Part shown: positions 29,270-36,308 of the stretch, one piece after another | How positions within the stretch are numbered: position 1 is the first letter of the stretch | Layout: each line of letters opens with the position of its first letter | Assembly (NCBI RefSeq): GCF_036507355.1 | Contig: NZ_AP027877.1 | DNA length: 64,000 bases | Direction: 5' to 3' (one strand) | From: Escherichia coli | GTDB lineage: Bacteria > Pseudomonadota > Gammaproteobacteria > Enterobacterales > Enterobacteriaceae | Notes under the pieces: generated by a model | The model's database searches: none | What the model saw: the letters and a program-made list of their open reading frames with translations, nothing else | Told to the model about the DNA's origin: nothing | Made by a program: the position numbers and the translations under genes

Positions 29270-29284
29270 GGTAATGACTCCAAC

Positions 29285-29788
29285 TTACTGATAGTGTTTT
29301 ATGTTCAGATAATGCCCGATGACCTTGTCATGCAGCTCCACCGATTTTGAGAACGACAGTGACTTCCGTCCCAGCCTTGCCAGATGTTGTCTCAGATTCA
29401 GATTATGTCGCTCAATGCGCTGAGTGTAACGCTTGCTGATAACGTGCAGCTTTCCCTTCAGGCGTGATTCATACAGCGGCCAGCCATCCGTCATCCATAC
29501 CACGACCTCAAAGGCCGACAGCAGGCTCAGAAGACGCTCCAGTGTGGCCAGAGTGCGTTCACCGAAGACGTGCGCCACAACCGTCCTCCGTATCCTGTCA
29601 TACGCGTAAAACAGCCAGCGCTGACGTGATTTAGCACCGACGTAGCCCCACTGTTCGTCCATTTCAGCGCAGACAATCACATCACTGCCCGGTTGTATGC
29701 GCGAGGTTACCGACTGCGGCCTGAGTTTTTTAAGTGACGTAAAACCGTGTTGAGGCCAACGCCCATAATGCGTGCACTGGCGCGACAT
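29285..29788 (-). CDS. insB: IS1 InsB (transposase C-terminal part, expressed as InsAB' by -1 frameshift)
   Basis: 167 aa ...[54 protein letters not shown]...; A6C slippery motif (revcomp of gtttttt at 29725-29731). Confidence 0.9.
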
Positions 29789-29982
29789 CCGACGCCATTC
29801 ATGGCCATATCAATGATTTTCTGGTGCGTACCGGGCTGAGAGGTGGTGTAAGTGAACTGTAGTTGCCATGTTTTACGGCAATGAGAGCAGAGATAGCGCT
29901 GATGTCCGGCAGTGCTTTTGCCGTTACGCACCACGCCTTCAGTAGCGGAGCAGGAAGGACATCTGATGGAAATGGAAGCCAC
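29707..29982 (-). CDS. insA: IS1 InsA (transposition repressor)
   Basis: 91 aa [43 protein letters not shown]... matches InsA. Confidence 0.92.
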
Positions 29983-30037
29983 GCAAGCACCTTAAAATCA
30001 CCATCATACACTAAATCAGTAAGTTGGCAGCATTACC

Positions 30038-30296
30038 CAAAATTGACGTTGCGCGTATCTACAATTGTCTGATTCAGAACAATATCGACACGATAAACCC
30101 CTGGCGTTATTTTTTGTCCTTTTTCGAAACGAGACAAATCGGCCACCATTGAGGGATCATCTTTGAAAAAGGCTGGATCGAACCAGGTTTCAGCTTGTGC
30201 ATTGAACGCTGCCGACACAAACACCACCAGCCCACCAATAAACGATGGCACTCCACCAGAGCTTAACAGGCTGTGTTGTCGGTGAGTTCTATACAT
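30038..30296 (-). pseudogene. elfC: 5' fragment of usher gene elfC (signal peptide plus first ~86 codons), cut off by IS1
   Basis: MYRTHRQHSLLSSGGVPSFIGGLVVFVSAAFNAQAETWFDPAFFKDDPSMVADLSRFEKGQKITPGVYRVDIVLNQTIVDTRNVNF - typical usher N-terminus; continues in frame with 27112-29269 once IS1 and one repeat copy are removed. Confidence 0.88.
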
Positions 30297-30320
30297 CTCG
30301 CTCTCTTAACTGAAGACGAA

Positions 30321-31022
30321 TTACGATTTACAGTTGAGTTGCGGCGTTTCCGCCCCGTAGTCATTGATGGTTCGATACGTTACGCTGCTATTTTTGGCAC
30401 CCTTTGGCAGAGAGAATTGGTATTTATCAAAGGGGGAAATCATTTGATTTTTAACTACCTTTCCACCTATTTTCAGGTCTGTCAGGGTAATGAAATAAGG
30501 TGTTGGGTTACTGACCGTAACCATGTCAGCTGACGAAGTGCAACGCAGTTTCGCCGGAGCCTCGCCTAAGGGATACGCTAAACCTTTTGGTCGCCAGAAA
30601 AGTTTGATGACGCTTTGTGTGGCAATCTTCAGGGTATTTCCCTCTTCCCGCTTCGTTGTTGAAGGGACTGCCCGTACGCTAGTGAAGAAAAGGGTTTCTC
30701 TGTCTTTCGCCAACGGCGCACCAATGTACATAATGCGTAACAGATTCTCATTAGCCGGATTCAGCACAAATAGCGGTGGTGTAATAATAAAGTCTGCTGA
30801 TTTTTTATTATCTGGGGTCATCACCCATGACTGAATAAGATAAGGAACATCCGGACTGGTGTTACGTACACCCAGTGAAATTTGCTCTTCACCTTCTGAA
30901 TAAACAAGACGTGTTGCTGCAAGTCCAATCCCGCCTTTACCTGCCGCCCATGCGGATGAGCAGCTGAGTAATATTGCCGTTAAACTTACGGTCACAATTC
31001 CCTTTGTTATGCAAGTTTTCAT
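30321..31022 (-). CDS. elfD: Fimbrial periplasmic chaperone ElfD (YcbR)
   Basis: 233 aa MKTCITKGIVTVSLTAILLSCSSAWA..., PapD-like chaperone motifs; matches ElfD/YcbR. Confidence 0.9.
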   Translation of the reverse strand: MKTCITKGIVTVSLTAILLSCSSAWAAGKGGIGLAATRLVYSEGEEQISLGVRNTSPDVPYLIQSWVMTPDNKKSADFIITPPLFVLNPANENLLRIMYIGAPLAKDRETLFFTSVRAVPSTTKREEGNTLKIATQSVIKLFWRPKGLAYPLGEAPAKLRCTSSADMVTVSNPTPYFITLTDLKIGGKVVKNQMISPFDKYQFSLPKGAKNSSVTYRTINDYGAETPQLNCKS

Positions 31023-31125
31023 AAATAGTCACTCTTAAAAAATATGAATATCCCCTCCAGAACACTGGAGGAGTACAAATTAATAAAACAATTAATGAGT
31101 TCTATTAATAGGTAATGACTCCAAC

Positions 31126-31629
31126 TTATTGATAGTGTTTTATGTTCAGATAATGCCCGATGACTTTGTCATGCAGCTCCACCGATTTTGAGAACGACAG
31201 CGACTTCCGTCCCAGCCGTGCCAGGTGCTGCCTCAGATTCAGGTTATGCCGCTCAATTCGCTGCGTATATCGCTTGCTGATTACGTGCAGCTTTCCCTTC
31301 AGGCGGGATTCATACAGCGGCCAGCCATCCGTCATCCATATCACCACGTCAAAGGGTGACAGCAGGCTCATAAGACGCCCCAGCGTCGCCATCGTGCGTT
31401 CACCGAATACGTGCGCAACAACCGTCTTCCGGAGCCTGTCATACGCGTAAAACAGCCAGCGCTGGCGCGATTTAGCCCCGACATAGCCCCACTGTTCGTC
31501 CATTTCCGCGCAGACGATGACGTCACTGCCCGGCTGTATGCGCGAGGTTACCGACTGCGGCCTGAGTTTTTTAAGTGACGTAAAATCGTGTTGAGGCCAA
31601 CGCCCATAATGCGGGCTGTTGCCCGGCAT
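31126..31629 (-). CDS. insB: IS1 InsB
   Basis: 167 aa, about 90% identical to the other copy; A6C motif (revcomp of gtttttt at 31576-31582). Confidence 0.9.
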
Positions 31630-31823
31630 CCAACGCCATTCATGGCCATATCAATGATTTTCTGGTGCGTACCGGGTTGAGAAGCGGTGTAAGTGAACTG
31701 CAGTTGCCATGTTTTACGGCAGTGAGAGCAGAGATAGCGCTGATGTCCGGCGGTGCTTTTGCCGTTACGCACCACCCCGTCAGTAGCTGAACAGGAGGGA
31801 CAGCTGATAGAAACAGAAGCCAC
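31548..31823 (-). CDS. insA: IS1 InsA
   Basis: 91 aa [43 protein letters not shown]... Confidence 0.92.
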
Positions 31824-32072
31824 TGGAGCACCTCAAAAACACCATCATACACTAAATCAGTAAGTTGGCAGCATCACCGAGTAATTCATTGATTCAACAT
31901 CTAATGACTATCCAATAAATAAATATGCGTGATATATAAAGCCCTTTCTTTAGTTTATTTTCAGAAAAAGATACACAAAATTTATATTTGGCATTTTCTT
32001 GTCTCTCCGACAGACTGAGCGAATTGTTATCAATGTTAACAAAACAAGAACAATTGGTTATAAGGAGAGAGT

Positions 32073-32647
32073 ATGCGTGTCATCACCCTGGCGGGTAGTC
32101 CTCGCTTTCCTTCTCGCTCCAGCTCCTTGCTGGAATATGCGCGGGAAAAACTAAATGGCCTGGATGTAGAGGTTTATCACTGGAATCTGCAAAACTTCGC
32201 CGCGGAAGATCTGCTTTATGCTCGTTTCGATAGTCCGGCACTCAATACCTTCACCGAACAGTTGCAACAGGCTGACGGGCTGATTGTCGCCACGCCTGTG
32301 TATAAAGCCGCTTATTCCGGTGCGCTGAAAACCCTGCTCGACCTGCTGCCAGAACGTGCGTTGCAAGGCAAAGTGGTGCTACCGCTGGCGACGGGCGGTA
32401 CGGTGGCCCATCTGCTGGCGGTCGATTATGCCCTTAAGCCAGTTTTAAGTGCGCTGAAAGCCCAGGAGATCCTGCACGGCGTGTTTGCGATGACTCACAA
32501 GTAATTGATTACCATCACAAACCCCAGTTCACGCCGAATTTACAAACCCGTCTTGATACCGCGCTAGAAACTTTCTGGCAGGCATTGCACCGCCGCGATG
32601 TTCAGGTTCCTGATCTTCATTCTCTGCGAGGTAATGCCCATGCGTAA
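32073..32647 (+). pseudogene. ssuE: NADPH-dependent FMN reductase SsuE, apparently frameshifted (truncated at codon 143)
   Basis: Frame from ATG 32073 stops at 32502-32504 (...HGVFAMTHK*); SsuE C-terminus [52 protein letters not shown] continues in the +2 frame to 32645-32647; consistent with a 1 bp deletion near 32485-32495. Confidence 0.7.
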
Positions 32648-33599
32648 CATCATTAAACTGGCGCTGGTGGGATTGCTTAGCGTCTCTACGATTGTGGTTG
32701 CTGCAGAATCCTCGCCTGAAGCGTTACGTATAGGCTATCAGAAAGGCAGTATTGGTATGGTATTGGCAAAAAGCCACCAGTTACTGGAAAAACGCTATCC
32801 GCAATCAAAAATCTCCTGGGTGGAGTTCCCCGCTGGCCCGCAAATGCTTGAGGCGTTAAACGTTGGCAGTATTGATCTCGGCAGTACCGGGGATATTCCG
32901 CCAATCTTCGCCCAGGCTGCCGGGGCTGATTTGCTGTACGTGGGCGTCGAGCCGCCGAAGCCAAAAGCCGAGGTGATTCTGGTGGCAGAAAACAGCCCGA
33001 TCAAAACCGTAGCCGATCTTAAAGGCCACAAAGTTGCGTTCCAGAAAGGTTCCAGTTCACACAATCTTTTACTGCGCGCACTACGCCAGGCCGGACTTAA
33101 GTTTCCTGACATCCAGCCCACTTATCTGACGCCAGCTGATGCCCGCGCCGCGTTCCAGCAAGGTAACGTTGACGCCTGGGCTATCTGGGATCCCTACTAC
33201 TCCGCTGCATTATTACAGGGCGGCGTGCGGGTGTTGAAAGACGGCACCGATCTCAATCAAACCGGATCGTTTTATCTGGCAGCTCGCCCCTATGCAGAAA
33301 AAAACGGCGCTTTTATTCAGGGTGTACTGGCAACCTTTAGTGAGGCCGATGCGTTAACCCGCAGCCAGCGCGAGCAAAGCATCGCTTTACTGGCAAAAAC
33401 GATGGGCTTACCGGCACCGGTGATTGCCTCTTACTTAGATCATCGCCCTCCTACCACCATCAAACCGGTTAATGCCGAGGTTGCCGCCTTACAGCAGCAA
33501 ACGGCAGATCTGTTTTATGAAAACCGTCTGGTGCCGAAAAAAGTCGATATTCGCCAACGCATCTGGCAGCCCACTCAACTGGAAGGAAAACAATTATGA
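32640..33599 (+). CDS. ssuA: Aliphatic sulfonate ABC transporter periplasmic binding protein
   Basis: 319 aa from [37 protein letters not shown]...; matches SsuA. Confidence 0.93.
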
Positions 33600-34741
33600 G
33601 TCTGAATATGTTCTGGTTTTTACCGACCCATGGTGACGGGCATTATCTGGGAACGGAAGAAGGTTCACGCCCGGTTGATCACGGTTATCTGCAACAAATT
33701 GCGCAAGCGGCGGATCGTCTTGGCTATACCGGTGTGCTGATCCCAACGGGGCGCTCCTGCGAAGATGCGTGGCTGGTTGCCGCATCGATGATCCCGGTGA
33801 CGCAGAGGCTGAAGTTTCTTGTCGCCCTGCGTCCCAGCGTAACCTCACCTACCGTTGCCGCCCGCCAGGCCGCCACGCTTGACCGTCTCTCAAATGGACG
33901 TGCGTTGTTTAACCTGGTCACAGGCAGCGATCCACAAGAACTGGCAGGCGACGGCGTGTTCCTTGATCATAGTGAGCGCTACGAAGCCTCGGCGGAATTT
34001 ACCCAGGTCTGGCGGCGCTTATTGCTGGGGGAAACCGTCGATTTCAACGGTAAACATATTCATGTGCGGGGAGCCAAACTGCTCTTCCCGCCGATTCAAC
34101 AGCCGTATCCTCCGCTTTACTTTGGCGGATCGTCAGACGTCGCCCAGGAGCTGGCGGCAGAACAAGTTGATCTCTACCTCACCTGGGGCGAACCGCCGGA
34201 ACTGGTTAAAGAGAAAATCGAACAAGTGCGGGCGAAAGCTGCCGCGCATGGACGCAAAATTCGTTTCGGCATTCGTCTGCATGTGATTGTTCGTGAAACT
34301 AACGACGAAGCGTGGCAGGCCGCCGAGCGGTTAATCTCGCATCTTGATGATGAGACTATCGCCAAAGCACAAGCCGCATTCGCCCGCACGGATTCCGTGG
34401 GGCAACAGCGAATGGCAGCGCTACATAACGGCAAGCGCGACAATCTGGAGATCAGCCCCAATTTATGGGCGGGCGTTGGCTTAGTGCGCGGCGGTGCCGG
34501 GACGGCACTGGTGGGCGATGGCCCAACCGTCGCCGCGCGAATCAACGAATACGCTGCACTTGGCATCGACAGTTTTGTGCTTTCGGGCTACCCGCATCTG
34601 GAAGAAGCGTATCGGGTTGGCGAGTTGCTGTTCCCACATCTGGATGTCGCCATTCCGGAAATTCCCCAGCCGCAGCCGCTGAATCCGCAAGGCGAAGCGG
34701 TGGCGAATGATTTTATCCCCCATAAAGTCGCGCAAAGCTAA
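33596..34741 (+). CDS. ssuD: FMNH2-dependent alkanesulfonate monooxygenase
   Basis: 381 aa [52 protein letters not shown]..., matches SsuD. Confidence 0.95.
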
Positions 34742-34749
34742 GGAACACG

Positions 34750-35544
34750 ATGATGGCAACGCCAGTGAAGAAGTGGTTATTGCGCGTTGCCCCCTGGTTT
34801 TTACCGGTGGGCATCGTGGCGGTGTGGCAACTGGCCTCCTCAGTTGGCTGGCTGTCGACGCGTATTTTGCCTTCACCGGAAGGAGTGGTGACGGCGTTCT
34901 GGACGCTCTCCGCCAGCGGCGAACTGTGGCAGCATCTGGCGATCAGCTCCTGGCGGGCGCTGATTGGCTTTTCAATTGGCGGATCGCTGGGGTTGATTTT
35001 GGGACTGATTAGCGGGCTGTCACGCTGGGGTGAGCGACTGCTGGATACCTCAATTCAGATGTTGCGCAACGTGCCGCATCTGGCGCTGATCCCGCTGGTG
35101 ATTTTGTGGTTTGGCATTGATGAATCCGCAAAAATCTTTCTGGTGGCGCTCGGTACGCTATTCCCCATTTATATCAACACCTGGCATGGCATCCGTAATA
35201 TCGATCGCGGGTTGGTGGAAATGGCGCGTAGCTATGGATTATCCGGCATACCGCTGTTTATCCATGTGATCCTGCCTGGTGCCCTGCCCTCAATTATGGT
35301 CGGCGTGCGTTTTGCGTTGGGCCTGATGTGGCTGACGCTGATTGTTGCCGAAACCATTTCTGCCAATTCAGGCATTGGTTATCTGGCGATGAATGCGCGG
35401 GAGTTTTTGCAAACGGACGTGGTGGTAGTCGCTATTATTCTTTACGCCCTGCTCGGCAAACTTGCTGACGTCAGCGCGCAGCTGTTAGAGCGGCTCTGGT
35501 TGCGCTGGAACCCGGCTTATCATTTGAAGGAGGCCACGGTATGA
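34750..35544 (+). CDS. ssuC: Aliphatic sulfonate ABC transporter permease
   Basis: about 263 aa membrane protein [28 protein letters not shown]...; matches SsuC (start may be second ATG at 34753). Confidence 0.92.
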
Positions 35545-36308
35545 ATACTGCTCGTCTGAACCAGGGCACACCATTGTTGCTCAATGCAGTAAGCAAACAT
35601 TACGCGGAAAATATCGTCCTGAACCAACTGGATTTACATATTCCGGCAGGTCAGTTTGTGGCGGTGGTGGGCCGCAGCGGTGGTGGCAAAAGTACCCTGC
35701 TGCGCCTGCTGGCAGGTCTGGAAACGCCAACCGCTGGCGATGTGTTAGCGGGCACCACACCGCTGGCTGAAATTCAGGAAGACACGCGAATGATGTTTCA
35801 GGATGCGCGTCTGCTACCGTGGAAATCGGTGATTGATAACGTTGGGTTAGGCCTTAAAGGCCAGTGGCGCGATGCCGCGCGTCGGGCGTTGGCTGCGGTA
35901 GGACTGGAGAATCGCGCCGGGGAATGGCCTGCCGCACTTTCAGGCGGGCAGAAACAGCGAGTGGCGCTGGCAAGAGCGTTGATTCATCGACCGGGGTTAT
36001 TGTTGCTTGATGAACCGCTCGGTGCGCTGGATGCCTTAACGCGACTGGAGATGCAGGATTTGATTGTGTCGCTTTGGCAGGAGCATGGTTTTACCGTCTT
36101 GCTGGTGACGCATGATGTGAGCGAAGCGGTAGCGATGGCTGACCGGGTGTTGCTGATTGAAGAGGGAAAAATTGGTCTGGATTTGACGGTGGATATCCCC
36201 CGTCCGCGCCGGTTAGGGTCGGTACGATTAGCGGAGCTGGAAGCGGAAGTATTGCAGCGGGTAATGCAACGTGGTGAATCTGAAACTCGCCTGAGAAAAC
36301 AGGGGTAA
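35541..36308 (+). CDS. ssuB: Aliphatic sulfonate ABC transporter ATP-binding protein
   Basis: 255 aa with Walker [10 protein letters not shown] and ABC signature LSGGQKQR; matches SsuB. Confidence 0.93.

What the first reader, a model, noticed from the sequence alone, without database searches (positions are those of the whole stretch)
32073..32647. Probable frameshift truncating ssuE, the FMN reductase of the sulfonate-sulfur utilisation operon
The ssuE frame stops at codon 143 (...[11 protein letters not shown]). The +2 frame continues with [52 protein letters not shown], which matches the remembered SsuE C-terminus and ends overlapping the ssuA start as in K-12. That pattern indicates a single-base deletion near 32485-32495. 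ssuA, ssuD, ssuC and ssuB downstream look intact, so only the reductase is hit, and polarity or translational coupling to ssuA could also be affected.
Basis: partly seen in the sequence, partly recalled or inferred. Interest (0 to 1): 0.4.

Follow-up and report, generated by a model that had tools for sequence, protein, structure and literature searches.

The report
Frameshifted ssuE pseudogene, one lost base
One missing C cuts short the flavin reductase gene ssuE of the E. coli sulfonate-sulfur operon in a small sub-lineage of strains; it is a real but ordinary, recent gene-inactivating mutation.

Summary
The ssuE frame (32073..32504) stops after 143 codons: 139 native residues plus MTHK. The next frame (32489..32647) encodes the remaining 52 SsuE residues and ends 8 nt into ssuA, as in K-12.

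The cause is the loss of one C. Intact alleles read TTTGCCGATGAC; the window reads TTTGCGATGAC at 32484-32494. The other 575 bases are identical to intact ssuE of other E. coli.

It is not a one-off assembly error. At least three other datasets (two NCBI assemblies and a Logan assembly of an SRA run) carry the same deletion and the same upstream IS1 junction.

It is recent and lineage-restricted:
- Sister contigs with an identical SsuA protein have an intact 191-aa ssuE.
- None of 5,360 complete RefSeq E. coli genomes matches the 80 nt around the site exactly.

The truncation removes a conserved hairpin and the last helix (155-173) of the flavodoxin-like fold, so loss of SsuE function is likely but inferred. 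ssuA, ssuD, ssuC and ssuB are intact.

An IS1 193 nt upstream has replaced elfA and the distal intergenic region, and a second IS1 splits elfC.

Verdict: ordinary pseudogene, low interest.

The parts
32073..32504 (+). Truncated ssuE reading frame: 139 native SsuE codons, 4 out-of-frame codons (MTHK) and a TAA stop
   Evidence: ORF. NCBIfam PRK10569 SsuE equivalog matched only at profile positions 1-140 of 191, 284 bits; the exact product is GenBank BED23017.1, labelled 'hypothetical protein'.
32488..32489 (+). Site of the 1-nt deletion: one C of a CC dinucleotide is lost (intact alleles TTTGCCGATGAC, window TTTGCGATGAC)
   Evidence: Alignments to O145 RM9872, to sister contigs L004, L006 and L010 and to K-12 MG1655.
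32489..32647 (+). Out-of-frame 3' remnant of ssuE: native codons 140-191 plus the stop, no longer translated. It encodes the hairpin (144-153), helix alpha5 (155-173) and the tail.
   Evidence: translation; match to 4PTY residues 140-191; structure model, TM 0.95 to 4PTY; 13 invariant columns among 44 orthologues.
32505..32639 (+). 135-nt stretch left untranslated between the premature stop and the ssuA start. It is C-rich at its 5' end (C/G 1.85). The ssuA Shine-Dalgarno GAGG lies at 32628-32631.
   Evidence: composition and sequence; the local RNA fold is no more stable than shuffles, z -0.89.
32640..33599 (+). ssuA, intact (319 aa)
   Evidence: exact sequence named SsuA (BED23018.1).
33596..34741 (+). 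ssuD, intact (381 aa), the FMNH2-dependent alkanesulfonate monooxygenase
   Evidence: BED23019.1.
34753..35544 (+). ssuC, intact (263 aa from the annotated start; the ORF runs from 34750)
   Evidence: same length as the annotated ssuC in O145 and K-12.
35541..36308 (+). ssuB, intact (255 aa)
   Evidence: exact sequence named SsuB.
31879..32072 (+). Retained 194 bp upstream of ssuE (3 substitutions against K-12), with a sigma-70-like site TTCAGA-17-TATATT at 31960..31988
   Evidence: alignment. (consensus scan only, not evidence of function).
31111..31878 (-). IS1 (768 bp, insA/insB on the minus strand) with no target duplication. It replaces about 695 bp: all but 6 nt of elfA and the distal 161 bp of the elfA-ssuE intergenic region.
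29270..30037 (-). Second IS1 (91% identical to the first) inserted in elfC after about codon 86, with the 8-bp target duplication CAAAATTG

Best explanation
ssuE in this E. coli genome is a recent, heritable, lineage-specific pseudogene created by loss of one C in codon 139 (GCC to GC-).

Shown: translation shifts frame after Ala139, adds Met-Thr-His-Lys and stops at TAA 32502-32504. The product keeps strands beta1 to beta5 and helices alpha1 to alpha4 of the flavodoxin-like NADPH:FMN reductase. It lacks the conserved [10 protein letters not shown] hairpin, the final helix alpha5 (155-173) and the C-terminal tail.

Inferred: without alpha5, which packs on the central sheet, the fragment is unlikely to fold stably, so the dedicated supply of FMNH2 to the SsuD monooxygenase is lost.

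Inferred: ribosomes now stop 135 nt before ssuA instead of on top of its start codon. Termination-reinitiation coupling is therefore lost and some Rho-dependent polarity is possible. ssuA keeps its own GAGG Shine-Dalgarno, and ssuA, ssuD, ssuC and ssuB remain intact.

Inferred: growth on alkanesulfonates as sole sulfur source should be reduced or abolished, unless another flavin reductase substitutes for SsuE.
For: - Lesion: a single 1-nt gap is the only difference from intact ssuE alleles over 575/576 nt. It is also the only difference from sister contigs over 31918..34164.
- K-12 carries the C.
- The repaired product matches 4PTY over 1-191 and the SsuE equivalog over 1-191/191 at 358 bits. 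The ORF as it stands matches 1-140/191.
- Real, not artefact: GCA_905398585.1, SRR17480487 (plus 3 similar places) and GCA_021425525.1 (plus 3 similar places) are 99.95-100% identical to the window over 3.7-4.3 kb, including the deletion. Each of these contigs ends at or just inside the IS1.
- The site is a CC dinucleotide, not a homopolymer run.
- Recent and restricted: contigs with an identical SsuA protein have a 191-aa ssuE (L004, L005, L006, L010). No exact match to the 80-nt context exists in 5,360 complete RefSeq E. coli genomes.
- Structural loss: the AlphaFold model of the repaired protein has pLDDT 85.2 and places beta5 up to residue 139, a hairpin at 144-153 and alpha5 at 155-173 with pLDDT about 95. 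Its TM-score to crystal structure 4PTY is 0.95 over 174 residues.
- Conservation: the lost segment holds 13 invariant and 14 nearly invariant columns in 44 orthologues, nearly all of them 191 aa long.
- SsuE supplies FMNH2 to SsuD (PMC11022551).
Against: - The Pfam FMN_red domain is almost fully retained (1-142 on profile positions 1-149 of 152), so residual folding or activity of the fragment is not excluded by sequence alone.
- No read-level data could be examined.
- No expression or growth data exist for this strain.
- Other flavin reductases (for example Fre) may supply FMNH2. From memory, Kahnert et al. 2000 (J Bacteriol 182:2869) reported that SsuE is dispensable for growth on aliphatic sulfonates in Pseudomonas putida S-313. 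The paper is not in the library, so this is unverified here.
Confidence: 0.88

Rival explanations
1. Sequencing or assembly artefact: the C is present in the real genome and ssuE is intact.
For: A single-base indel is the commonest assembly error, and no reads could be inspected. The source genome is not in the RefSeq complete-genome set.
Against: The same deletion occurs in several independently generated assemblies: two NCBI assemblies, a Logan assembly of SRR17480487, and similar places not shown. The site is a CC dinucleotide rather than a long homopolymer. The allele always comes with the same IS1 junction, as a shared inherited haplotype would.
Confidence: 0.03
2. The lesion is real but phenotypically buffered. 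SsuD receives FMNH2 from another flavin reductase (Fre or similar), so the strain still uses alkanesulfonates. The pseudogene would be nearly neutral. This is compatible with the best explanation at the DNA level.
For: ssuA, ssuD, ssuC and ssuB remain intact, with no further substitutions in ssuA. SsuD uses free FMNH2 as a co-substrate rather than a bound cofactor (PMC11022551). From memory, and unverified here, ssuE is dispensable for growth on aliphatic sulfonates in P. putida S-313.
Against: ssuE is kept intact and 191 aa long in almost all E. coli and enterobacterial orthologues, which argues that it contributes to fitness. A sister assembly has acquired a second frameshift in ssuB, which hints at relaxed selection on the whole operon after the first hit.
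Confidence: 0.35
3. The operon as a whole is silenced. Premature termination causes strong Rho-dependent polarity, the IS1-associated deletion has removed upstream regulatory DNA, or both, so the effect reaches well beyond the reductase.
For: 135 nt become untranslated, and their first 78 nt are C-rich and G-poor (24 C, 13 G). IS1 has removed everything beyond 194 bp upstream of the ATG.
Against: The untranslated gap is short, and ssuA has its own GAGG Shine-Dalgarno 8 nt before its ATG. The promoter-like site at 31960-31988 and about 80 bp upstream of it are retained and nearly identical to K-12. The local RNA fold is unremarkable. The positions of the Cbl, CysB and IHF binding sites could not be checked in the literature held here.
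Confidence: 0.15
4. Programmed ribosomal frameshifting or another recoding event restores full-length SsuE, or the site is a phase-variable switch.
For: The downstream frame is fully open and undamaged.
Against: Restoring the frame needs a -1 shift at G-TTT-GCG-A, which is not an X XXY YYZ slippery heptamer (by inspection). All other E. coli encode the protein in one frame, so there is no conservation of a recoding site. A CC dinucleotide is not a slippage-prone tract. The undamaged downstream frame is explained simply by the mutation being recent.
Confidence: 0.01

Closest known systems
E. coli K-12 SsuE (b0937; PDB 4PTY, 4PTZ, 4PU0), the NADPH-dependent FMN reductase of the ssuEADCB operon
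   Same: Same locus and gene order: elf, then ssuE-A-D-C-B, then pepN. The repaired protein is 187/191 identical. The 8-nt overlap with ssuA is the same. The upstream 194 bp differs at 3 positions.
   Different: One C is missing in codon 139, giving a 143-aa product that lacks residues 140-191. The distal upstream region and elfA are replaced by IS1.
Other sporadic ssuE/ssu lesions in E. coli
   Same: These are independent, rare, lineage-specific inactivating or length-changing alleles of the same gene. They include a 13-nt deletion ending in the same out-of-frame THK* (P0013), a late frameshift (P0189) and an N-terminal frameshift (P0134). In-frame 10-aa duplications or deletions at [10 protein letters not shown] occur in P0121, P0126, P0129 and P0130. 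ssuD is annotated as a pseudogene in O145 RM9872.
   Different: The mutation and the genetic background differ. None is the -1C allele seen here.
IS1-mediated adjacent deletion and IS-driven gene decay in E. coli/Shigella lineages
   Same: A 768-bp IS1 without a target duplication replaces neighbouring DNA, and a second IS1 with an 8-bp duplication interrupts a fimbrial usher gene.
   Different: The ssuE lesion itself is a point deletion and is not caused by an IS. Only two IS copies occur in the 64 kb, so the window gives no evidence of genome-wide decay.

Membership tests
SsuE, NADPH-dependent FMN reductase (NCBIfam NF007859/PRK10569 and TIGR03567 equivalogs; Pfam PF03358) | Sequence score above the curated equivalog cut-off | tested here: met
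   the truncated ORF scores 284.2 bits and the repaired protein 358.3 bits against a cut-off of 225. For TIGR03567 the scores are 222.1 and 244.6 against 164.
SsuE, NADPH-dependent FMN reductase (NCBIfam NF007859/PRK10569 and TIGR03567 equivalogs; Pfam PF03358) | Full-length coverage of the family model (191 positions) in one reading frame | tested here: not met
   the ORF as it stands covers profile positions 1-140 of 191. Only the two frames joined cover 1-191. The locus is therefore an ssuE gene by descent, but it does not encode a complete family member.
SsuE, NADPH-dependent FMN reductase (NCBIfam NF007859/PRK10569 and TIGR03567 equivalogs; Pfam PF03358) | Genomic context: first gene of ssuEADCB, with its stop overlapping the ssuA start | tested here: met
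SsuE, NADPH-dependent FMN reductase (NCBIfam NF007859/PRK10569 and TIGR03567 equivalogs; Pfam PF03358) | Complete flavodoxin-like fold, including the terminal helix alpha5 | tested here: not met
   in the model (TM 0.95 to 4PTY) alpha5 spans 155-173, and the encoded product ends its native sequence at residue 139.
SsuE, NADPH-dependent FMN reductase (NCBIfam NF007859/PRK10569 and TIGR03567 equivalogs; Pfam PF03358) | NAD(P)H-dependent FMN reduction and delivery of FMNH2 to SsuD | not testable with these tools
   Needs an enzyme assay of the 143-aa product.
Frameshift pseudogene (unitary, recent) | A single indel relative to intact orthologues, a premature stop, and the remainder of the protein recoverable in another frame | tested here: met
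Frameshift pseudogene (unitary, recent) | The lesion is inherited, that is, present in independent assemblies of related isolates | tested here: met
Frameshift pseudogene (unitary, recent) | The ancestral intact state is present in the closest relatives | tested here: met
   L004, L005, L006 and L010 have an identical SsuA protein and an intact ssuE of 191 aa.
Programmed -1 ribosomal frameshift site | A slippery X XXY YYZ heptamer at the shift site, and conservation of the two-frame arrangement among relatives | tested here: not met
   the sequence GTTTGCGA is not a slippery heptamer; all other E. coli genomes use a single frame.
IS1 insertion sequence | An element of about 768 bp with GGTAATGAC... 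terminal inverted repeats and insA/insB ORFs | tested here: met
   31111..31878 and 29270..30037 are each 768 bp, with a 91-aa InsA ORF and 167-aa InsB ORFs; the matching features in other genomes are annotated as IS1 family transposase.

The most novel reading that the evidence does not exclude
The most novel reading not excluded is that the ssuE frameshift is not an isolated accident. Together with the IS1-mediated loss of elfA and the IS1 in elfC, all within 3.3 kb, and with a further ssuB frameshift in a sister isolate, it could mark a sub-lineage that is shedding the ELF fimbriae and sulfonate scavenging as it adapts to a sulfur-replete, host-restricted niche. A variant of this reading is that SsuD keeps working on FMNH2 from a non-cognate reductase, which would show that SsuE is dispensable in E. 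coli.
Probability: 0.2. Interest if true: 0.25.

Novelty: already known. Interest (0 to 1): 0.1.

Why it matters
The finding matters mainly for annotation and phenotype prediction. This strain's ssuE should be flagged as a pseudogene; in GenBank the fragment is currently called 'hypothetical protein' (BED23017.1). The strain is predicted to be impaired in using alkanesulfonates as a sulfur source under sulfate or cysteine starvation.

The -1C allele together with the IS1 junction is a clean lineage marker. The strain and its sisters with intact ssuE form a natural near-isogenic pair at this locus. That pair could be used to ask whether SsuE is needed in E. coli or can be replaced by other flavin reductases.

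No new biology is implied.

Tried and rejected
- **Sequencing artefact.** Rejected because the allele recurs in independent assemblies.
- **Programmed frameshift or phase variation.** Rejected: there is no slippery heptamer, no repeat tract and no conservation.
- **A separately translated C-terminal fragment.** Rejected. By inspection, the ssuE C-terminal frame has no ATG, GTG or TTG start before a TTG that would give only about 20 aa. The ATG at 32598 is in the ssuA frame.
- **Single-sequence AlphaFold model.** It was too poor to use (pLDDT 47.5) and was replaced by a model built from a 44-sequence alignment.
- **RNA fold around the ssuA start.** It is no more stable than shuffles (z -0.89), so it says nothing about occlusion of the ribosome-binding site.
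- **Literature.** The primary ssu papers are not held: van der Ploeg 1999, Driggers 2014, Eichhorn 2000 and Kahnert 2000. Full-text searches found nothing on ssuE pseudogenes, ssuE dispensability or mapped ssu promoter sites. Promoter and regulator-site positions and the dispensability of SsuE therefore rest on a consensus scan and on memory.
- **Identity of the source strain.** It could be taken no further than 'E. coli, GenBank proteins BED23010-BED23022, 4.64-Mb chromosome'. The best complete RefSeq genome is only 98.9% identical over 24 kb.

Full report
**Observation.** The window carries an ORF at 32073..32504 (+) of 143 codons that ends ...[11 protein letters not shown], followed by TAA. 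Translating 32489..32647 in the next frame gives [52 protein letters not shown]. Joined after Ala139, the two pieces make a 191-aa protein. It aligns end to end (1-191 on 1-191, E 6e-122) with E. coli K-12 SsuE in PDB 4PTY, with four substitutions. The ssuE-frame stop at 32645-32647 overlaps the ssuA ATG at 32640 by 8 nt, the same arrangement as in K-12 MG1655.

**Cause.** A megablast of 32073..32647 against 5,426 complete RefSeq E. coli genomes found ssuE in 5,413 of them. The best hits (O145:H28 and others) are 99.8% identical, and there the 575 query bases span 576 record bases. Alignment shows that the only difference is one missing C. Intact alleles read TTTGCCGATGAC and the window reads TTTGCGATGAC, so the gap lies next to c32488. 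K-12 also has the C, alongside 22 substitutions. Codon 139 changes from GCC to GCG, still Ala, and the frame then shifts. The site is a CC dinucleotide, not a homopolymer run.

**Real or artefact.** The exact 143-aa product is in the public protein collection as BED23017.1, 'hypothetical protein VEE46_27850 [Escherichia coli]', on a 4,643,937-bp contig. The neighbouring SsuA, SsuD and PepN are BED23018, BED23019 and BED23022, so the window very probably comes from that genome.

The same allele occurs in other datasets:
- NCBI assembly GCA_905398585.1.
- A Logan assembly of SRR17480487, plus three similar places.
- NCBI assembly GCA_021425525.1, plus three similar places.

These contigs are 99.95-100% identical to the window over 3.7-4.3 kb, including the deletion. 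All of them end at or just inside the IS1 that lies upstream of ssuE in the window. A shared haplotype in several independently assembled samples is inheritance, not a one-off assembly error.

**Age and distribution.** Contigs that encode an identical SsuA protein fall into two groups.
- One group carries the -1C allele and breaks at the IS1.
- The other group (SRR14996021, ERR3503833, GCA_019081545.1, GCA_900195525.1) has a 191-aa ssuE. Where the contig extends far enough, it also has an intact elfA and no IS1.

Between the window and this second group, the stretch 31878..34164 differs only by the C and, in some contigs, by a 4-bp AATA repeat-unit indel far upstream. No complete RefSeq E. coli genome matches the 80 nt around the site exactly; the top band was 98.8%, which is one gap. 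The downstream out-of-frame part has accumulated no further change. The mutation is therefore recent and confined to a small sub-lineage. That sub-lineage has no close relative among complete RefSeq genomes; the best is 98.9% identical over 24 kb.

**Consequence for the protein.** Pfam FMN_red is almost fully retained (residues 1-142 on profile positions 1-149 of 152). The SsuE equivalog models are cut at position 140 of 191 (PRK10569) and 140 of 171 (TIGR03567).

A single-sequence AlphaFold model was unusable (pLDDT 47.5). A model built with 44 orthologues reached pLDDT 85.2 and superposes on crystal structure 4PTY with TM 0.95 and rmsd 1.6 Å over 174 residues. In this model:
- beta5 ends at residue 139;
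- a hairpin follows at 144-153;
- the last helix, alpha5, spans 155-173 with pLDDT about 95;
- the tail is disordered.

The truncated product thus lacks about 35 ordered residues, roughly a fifth of the ordered fold, including the terminal helix of the alpha/beta sandwich. Among the 44 orthologues, the lost segment contains 13 invariant and 14 nearly invariant columns. Most listed orthologues are 191 aa long, so this part is under purifying selection. Loss of function is the likely outcome, but it is an inference from structure and conservation, not a measurement.

**Consequence for the operon.** ssuA (319 aa), ssuD (381 aa), ssuC (263/264 aa) and ssuB (255 aa) are full-length. SsuA, SsuD and SsuB are identical to named database proteins.

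Ribosomes now terminate 135 nt before the ssuA start. That stretch is C-rich at its 5' end (24 C against 13 G in the first 78 nt). ssuA keeps a GAGG Shine-Dalgarno 8 nt upstream of its ATG. A local RNA fold is no more stable than shuffled sequence (z -0.89). Loss of translational coupling and mild polarity are plausible, but neither is shown.

SsuD uses FMNH2 supplied by SsuE as a diffusible co-substrate (PMC11022551). Another flavin reductase could therefore partly substitute. My recollection is that this is the case in Pseudomonas putida S-313 (Kahnert et al. 2000), but the paper is not held and this could not be verified.

A 768-bp IS1 lies at 31111..31878 on the minus strand and ends 193 nt upstream of the ssuE ATG. 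It has no target duplication. It replaces about 695 bp present in other E. coli: all but 6 nt of elfA and the distal 161 bp of the 355-bp elfA-ssuE intergenic region.

The retained 194 bp differ from K-12 at three positions. They contain a sigma-70-like TTCAGA-17-TATATT at 31960-31988. Whether all Cbl, CysB and IHF sites survive could not be checked against the primary literature.

A second IS1, 91% identical to the first, sits in elfC at 29270..30037 with the target duplication CAAAATTG. Every other gene I checked in the 64-kb window has an ORF as long as or longer than my recollection of its K-12 length. The three lesions are therefore clustered within 3.3 kb.

**Comparison and novelty.** This is E. 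coli ssuE by sequence, context and descent, but it does not encode a complete SsuE.

Sporadic independent lesions of ssuE occur elsewhere in E. coli:
- a 13-nt deletion that ends in the same out-of-frame stop;
- late and N-terminal frameshifts;
- 10-aa in-frame duplications or deletions in the [10 protein letters not shown] loop.

In addition, ssuD is annotated as a pseudogene in O145 RM9872, and a sister of the present lineage has a further 1-nt deletion in ssuB.

There is no slippery heptamer, no repeat tract and no conservation that would suggest recoding or phase variation. The finding is a correctly diagnosed, ordinary, recent frameshift pseudogene. Its value lies in annotation and phenotype prediction and as a lineage marker. 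Interest is low.

Noticed in passing
window 31111..31878: An IS1 (768 bp, minus strand, no target-site duplication) replaces about 695 bp found in other E. coli: essentially all of elfA and the distal 161 bp of the elfA-ssuE intergenic region. This looks like an IS1-mediated adjacent deletion. It ends 193 nt upstream of the ssuE ATG.
   Followed up: yes
window 29270..30037: A second IS1 copy, only 91% identical to the first, is inserted in the fimbrial usher gene elfC after about codon 86, with the 8-bp target duplication CAAAATTG. The elf operon is therefore hit twice.
   Followed up: partly
window 29270..32489: All three lesions (IS1 in elfC, IS1 with the elfA deletion, ssuE -1C) lie within 3.3 kb. 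Every other gene I checked in the 64-kb window has an ORF as long as or longer than my recollection of its K-12 length. Whether this clustering is chance or local relaxed selection is unknown.
   Followed up: no
L007 (GCA_905398585.1), equivalent to window 35969: A sister assembly with the same ssuE allele has an additional 1-nt deletion in ssuB that splits it into 146-aa and 127-aa ORFs. This is either further decay of the operon or an assembly error.
   Followed up: no
window 34165..36097 against L004, L006 and L010: Sister contigs have no substitutions against the window from 31878 to 34164 (L010 has one, at 33891). They then differ at about 37 positions (about 2%) from 34165 onward, which suggests a recombination breakpoint inside ssuD.
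   Followed up: no
proteins P0013, P0121, P0126, P0129, P0130, P0134, P0189 (other E. coli assemblies): Other rare ssuE alleles exist: a 13-nt deletion ending ...HGTHK*, in-frame 10-aa duplications or deletions at the [10 protein letters not shown] loop (probably mediated by short direct repeats), and a late and an N-terminal frameshift. In O145 str. RM9872 ssuD is annotated as a pseudogene (L001 4525..5655).
   Followed up: partly
L004/L005 position 1..233 (elfC): In sister contigs without the IS1, the called elfC product is 609 aa rather than 866 aa. elfC may be truncated there by a different lesion.
   Followed up: no
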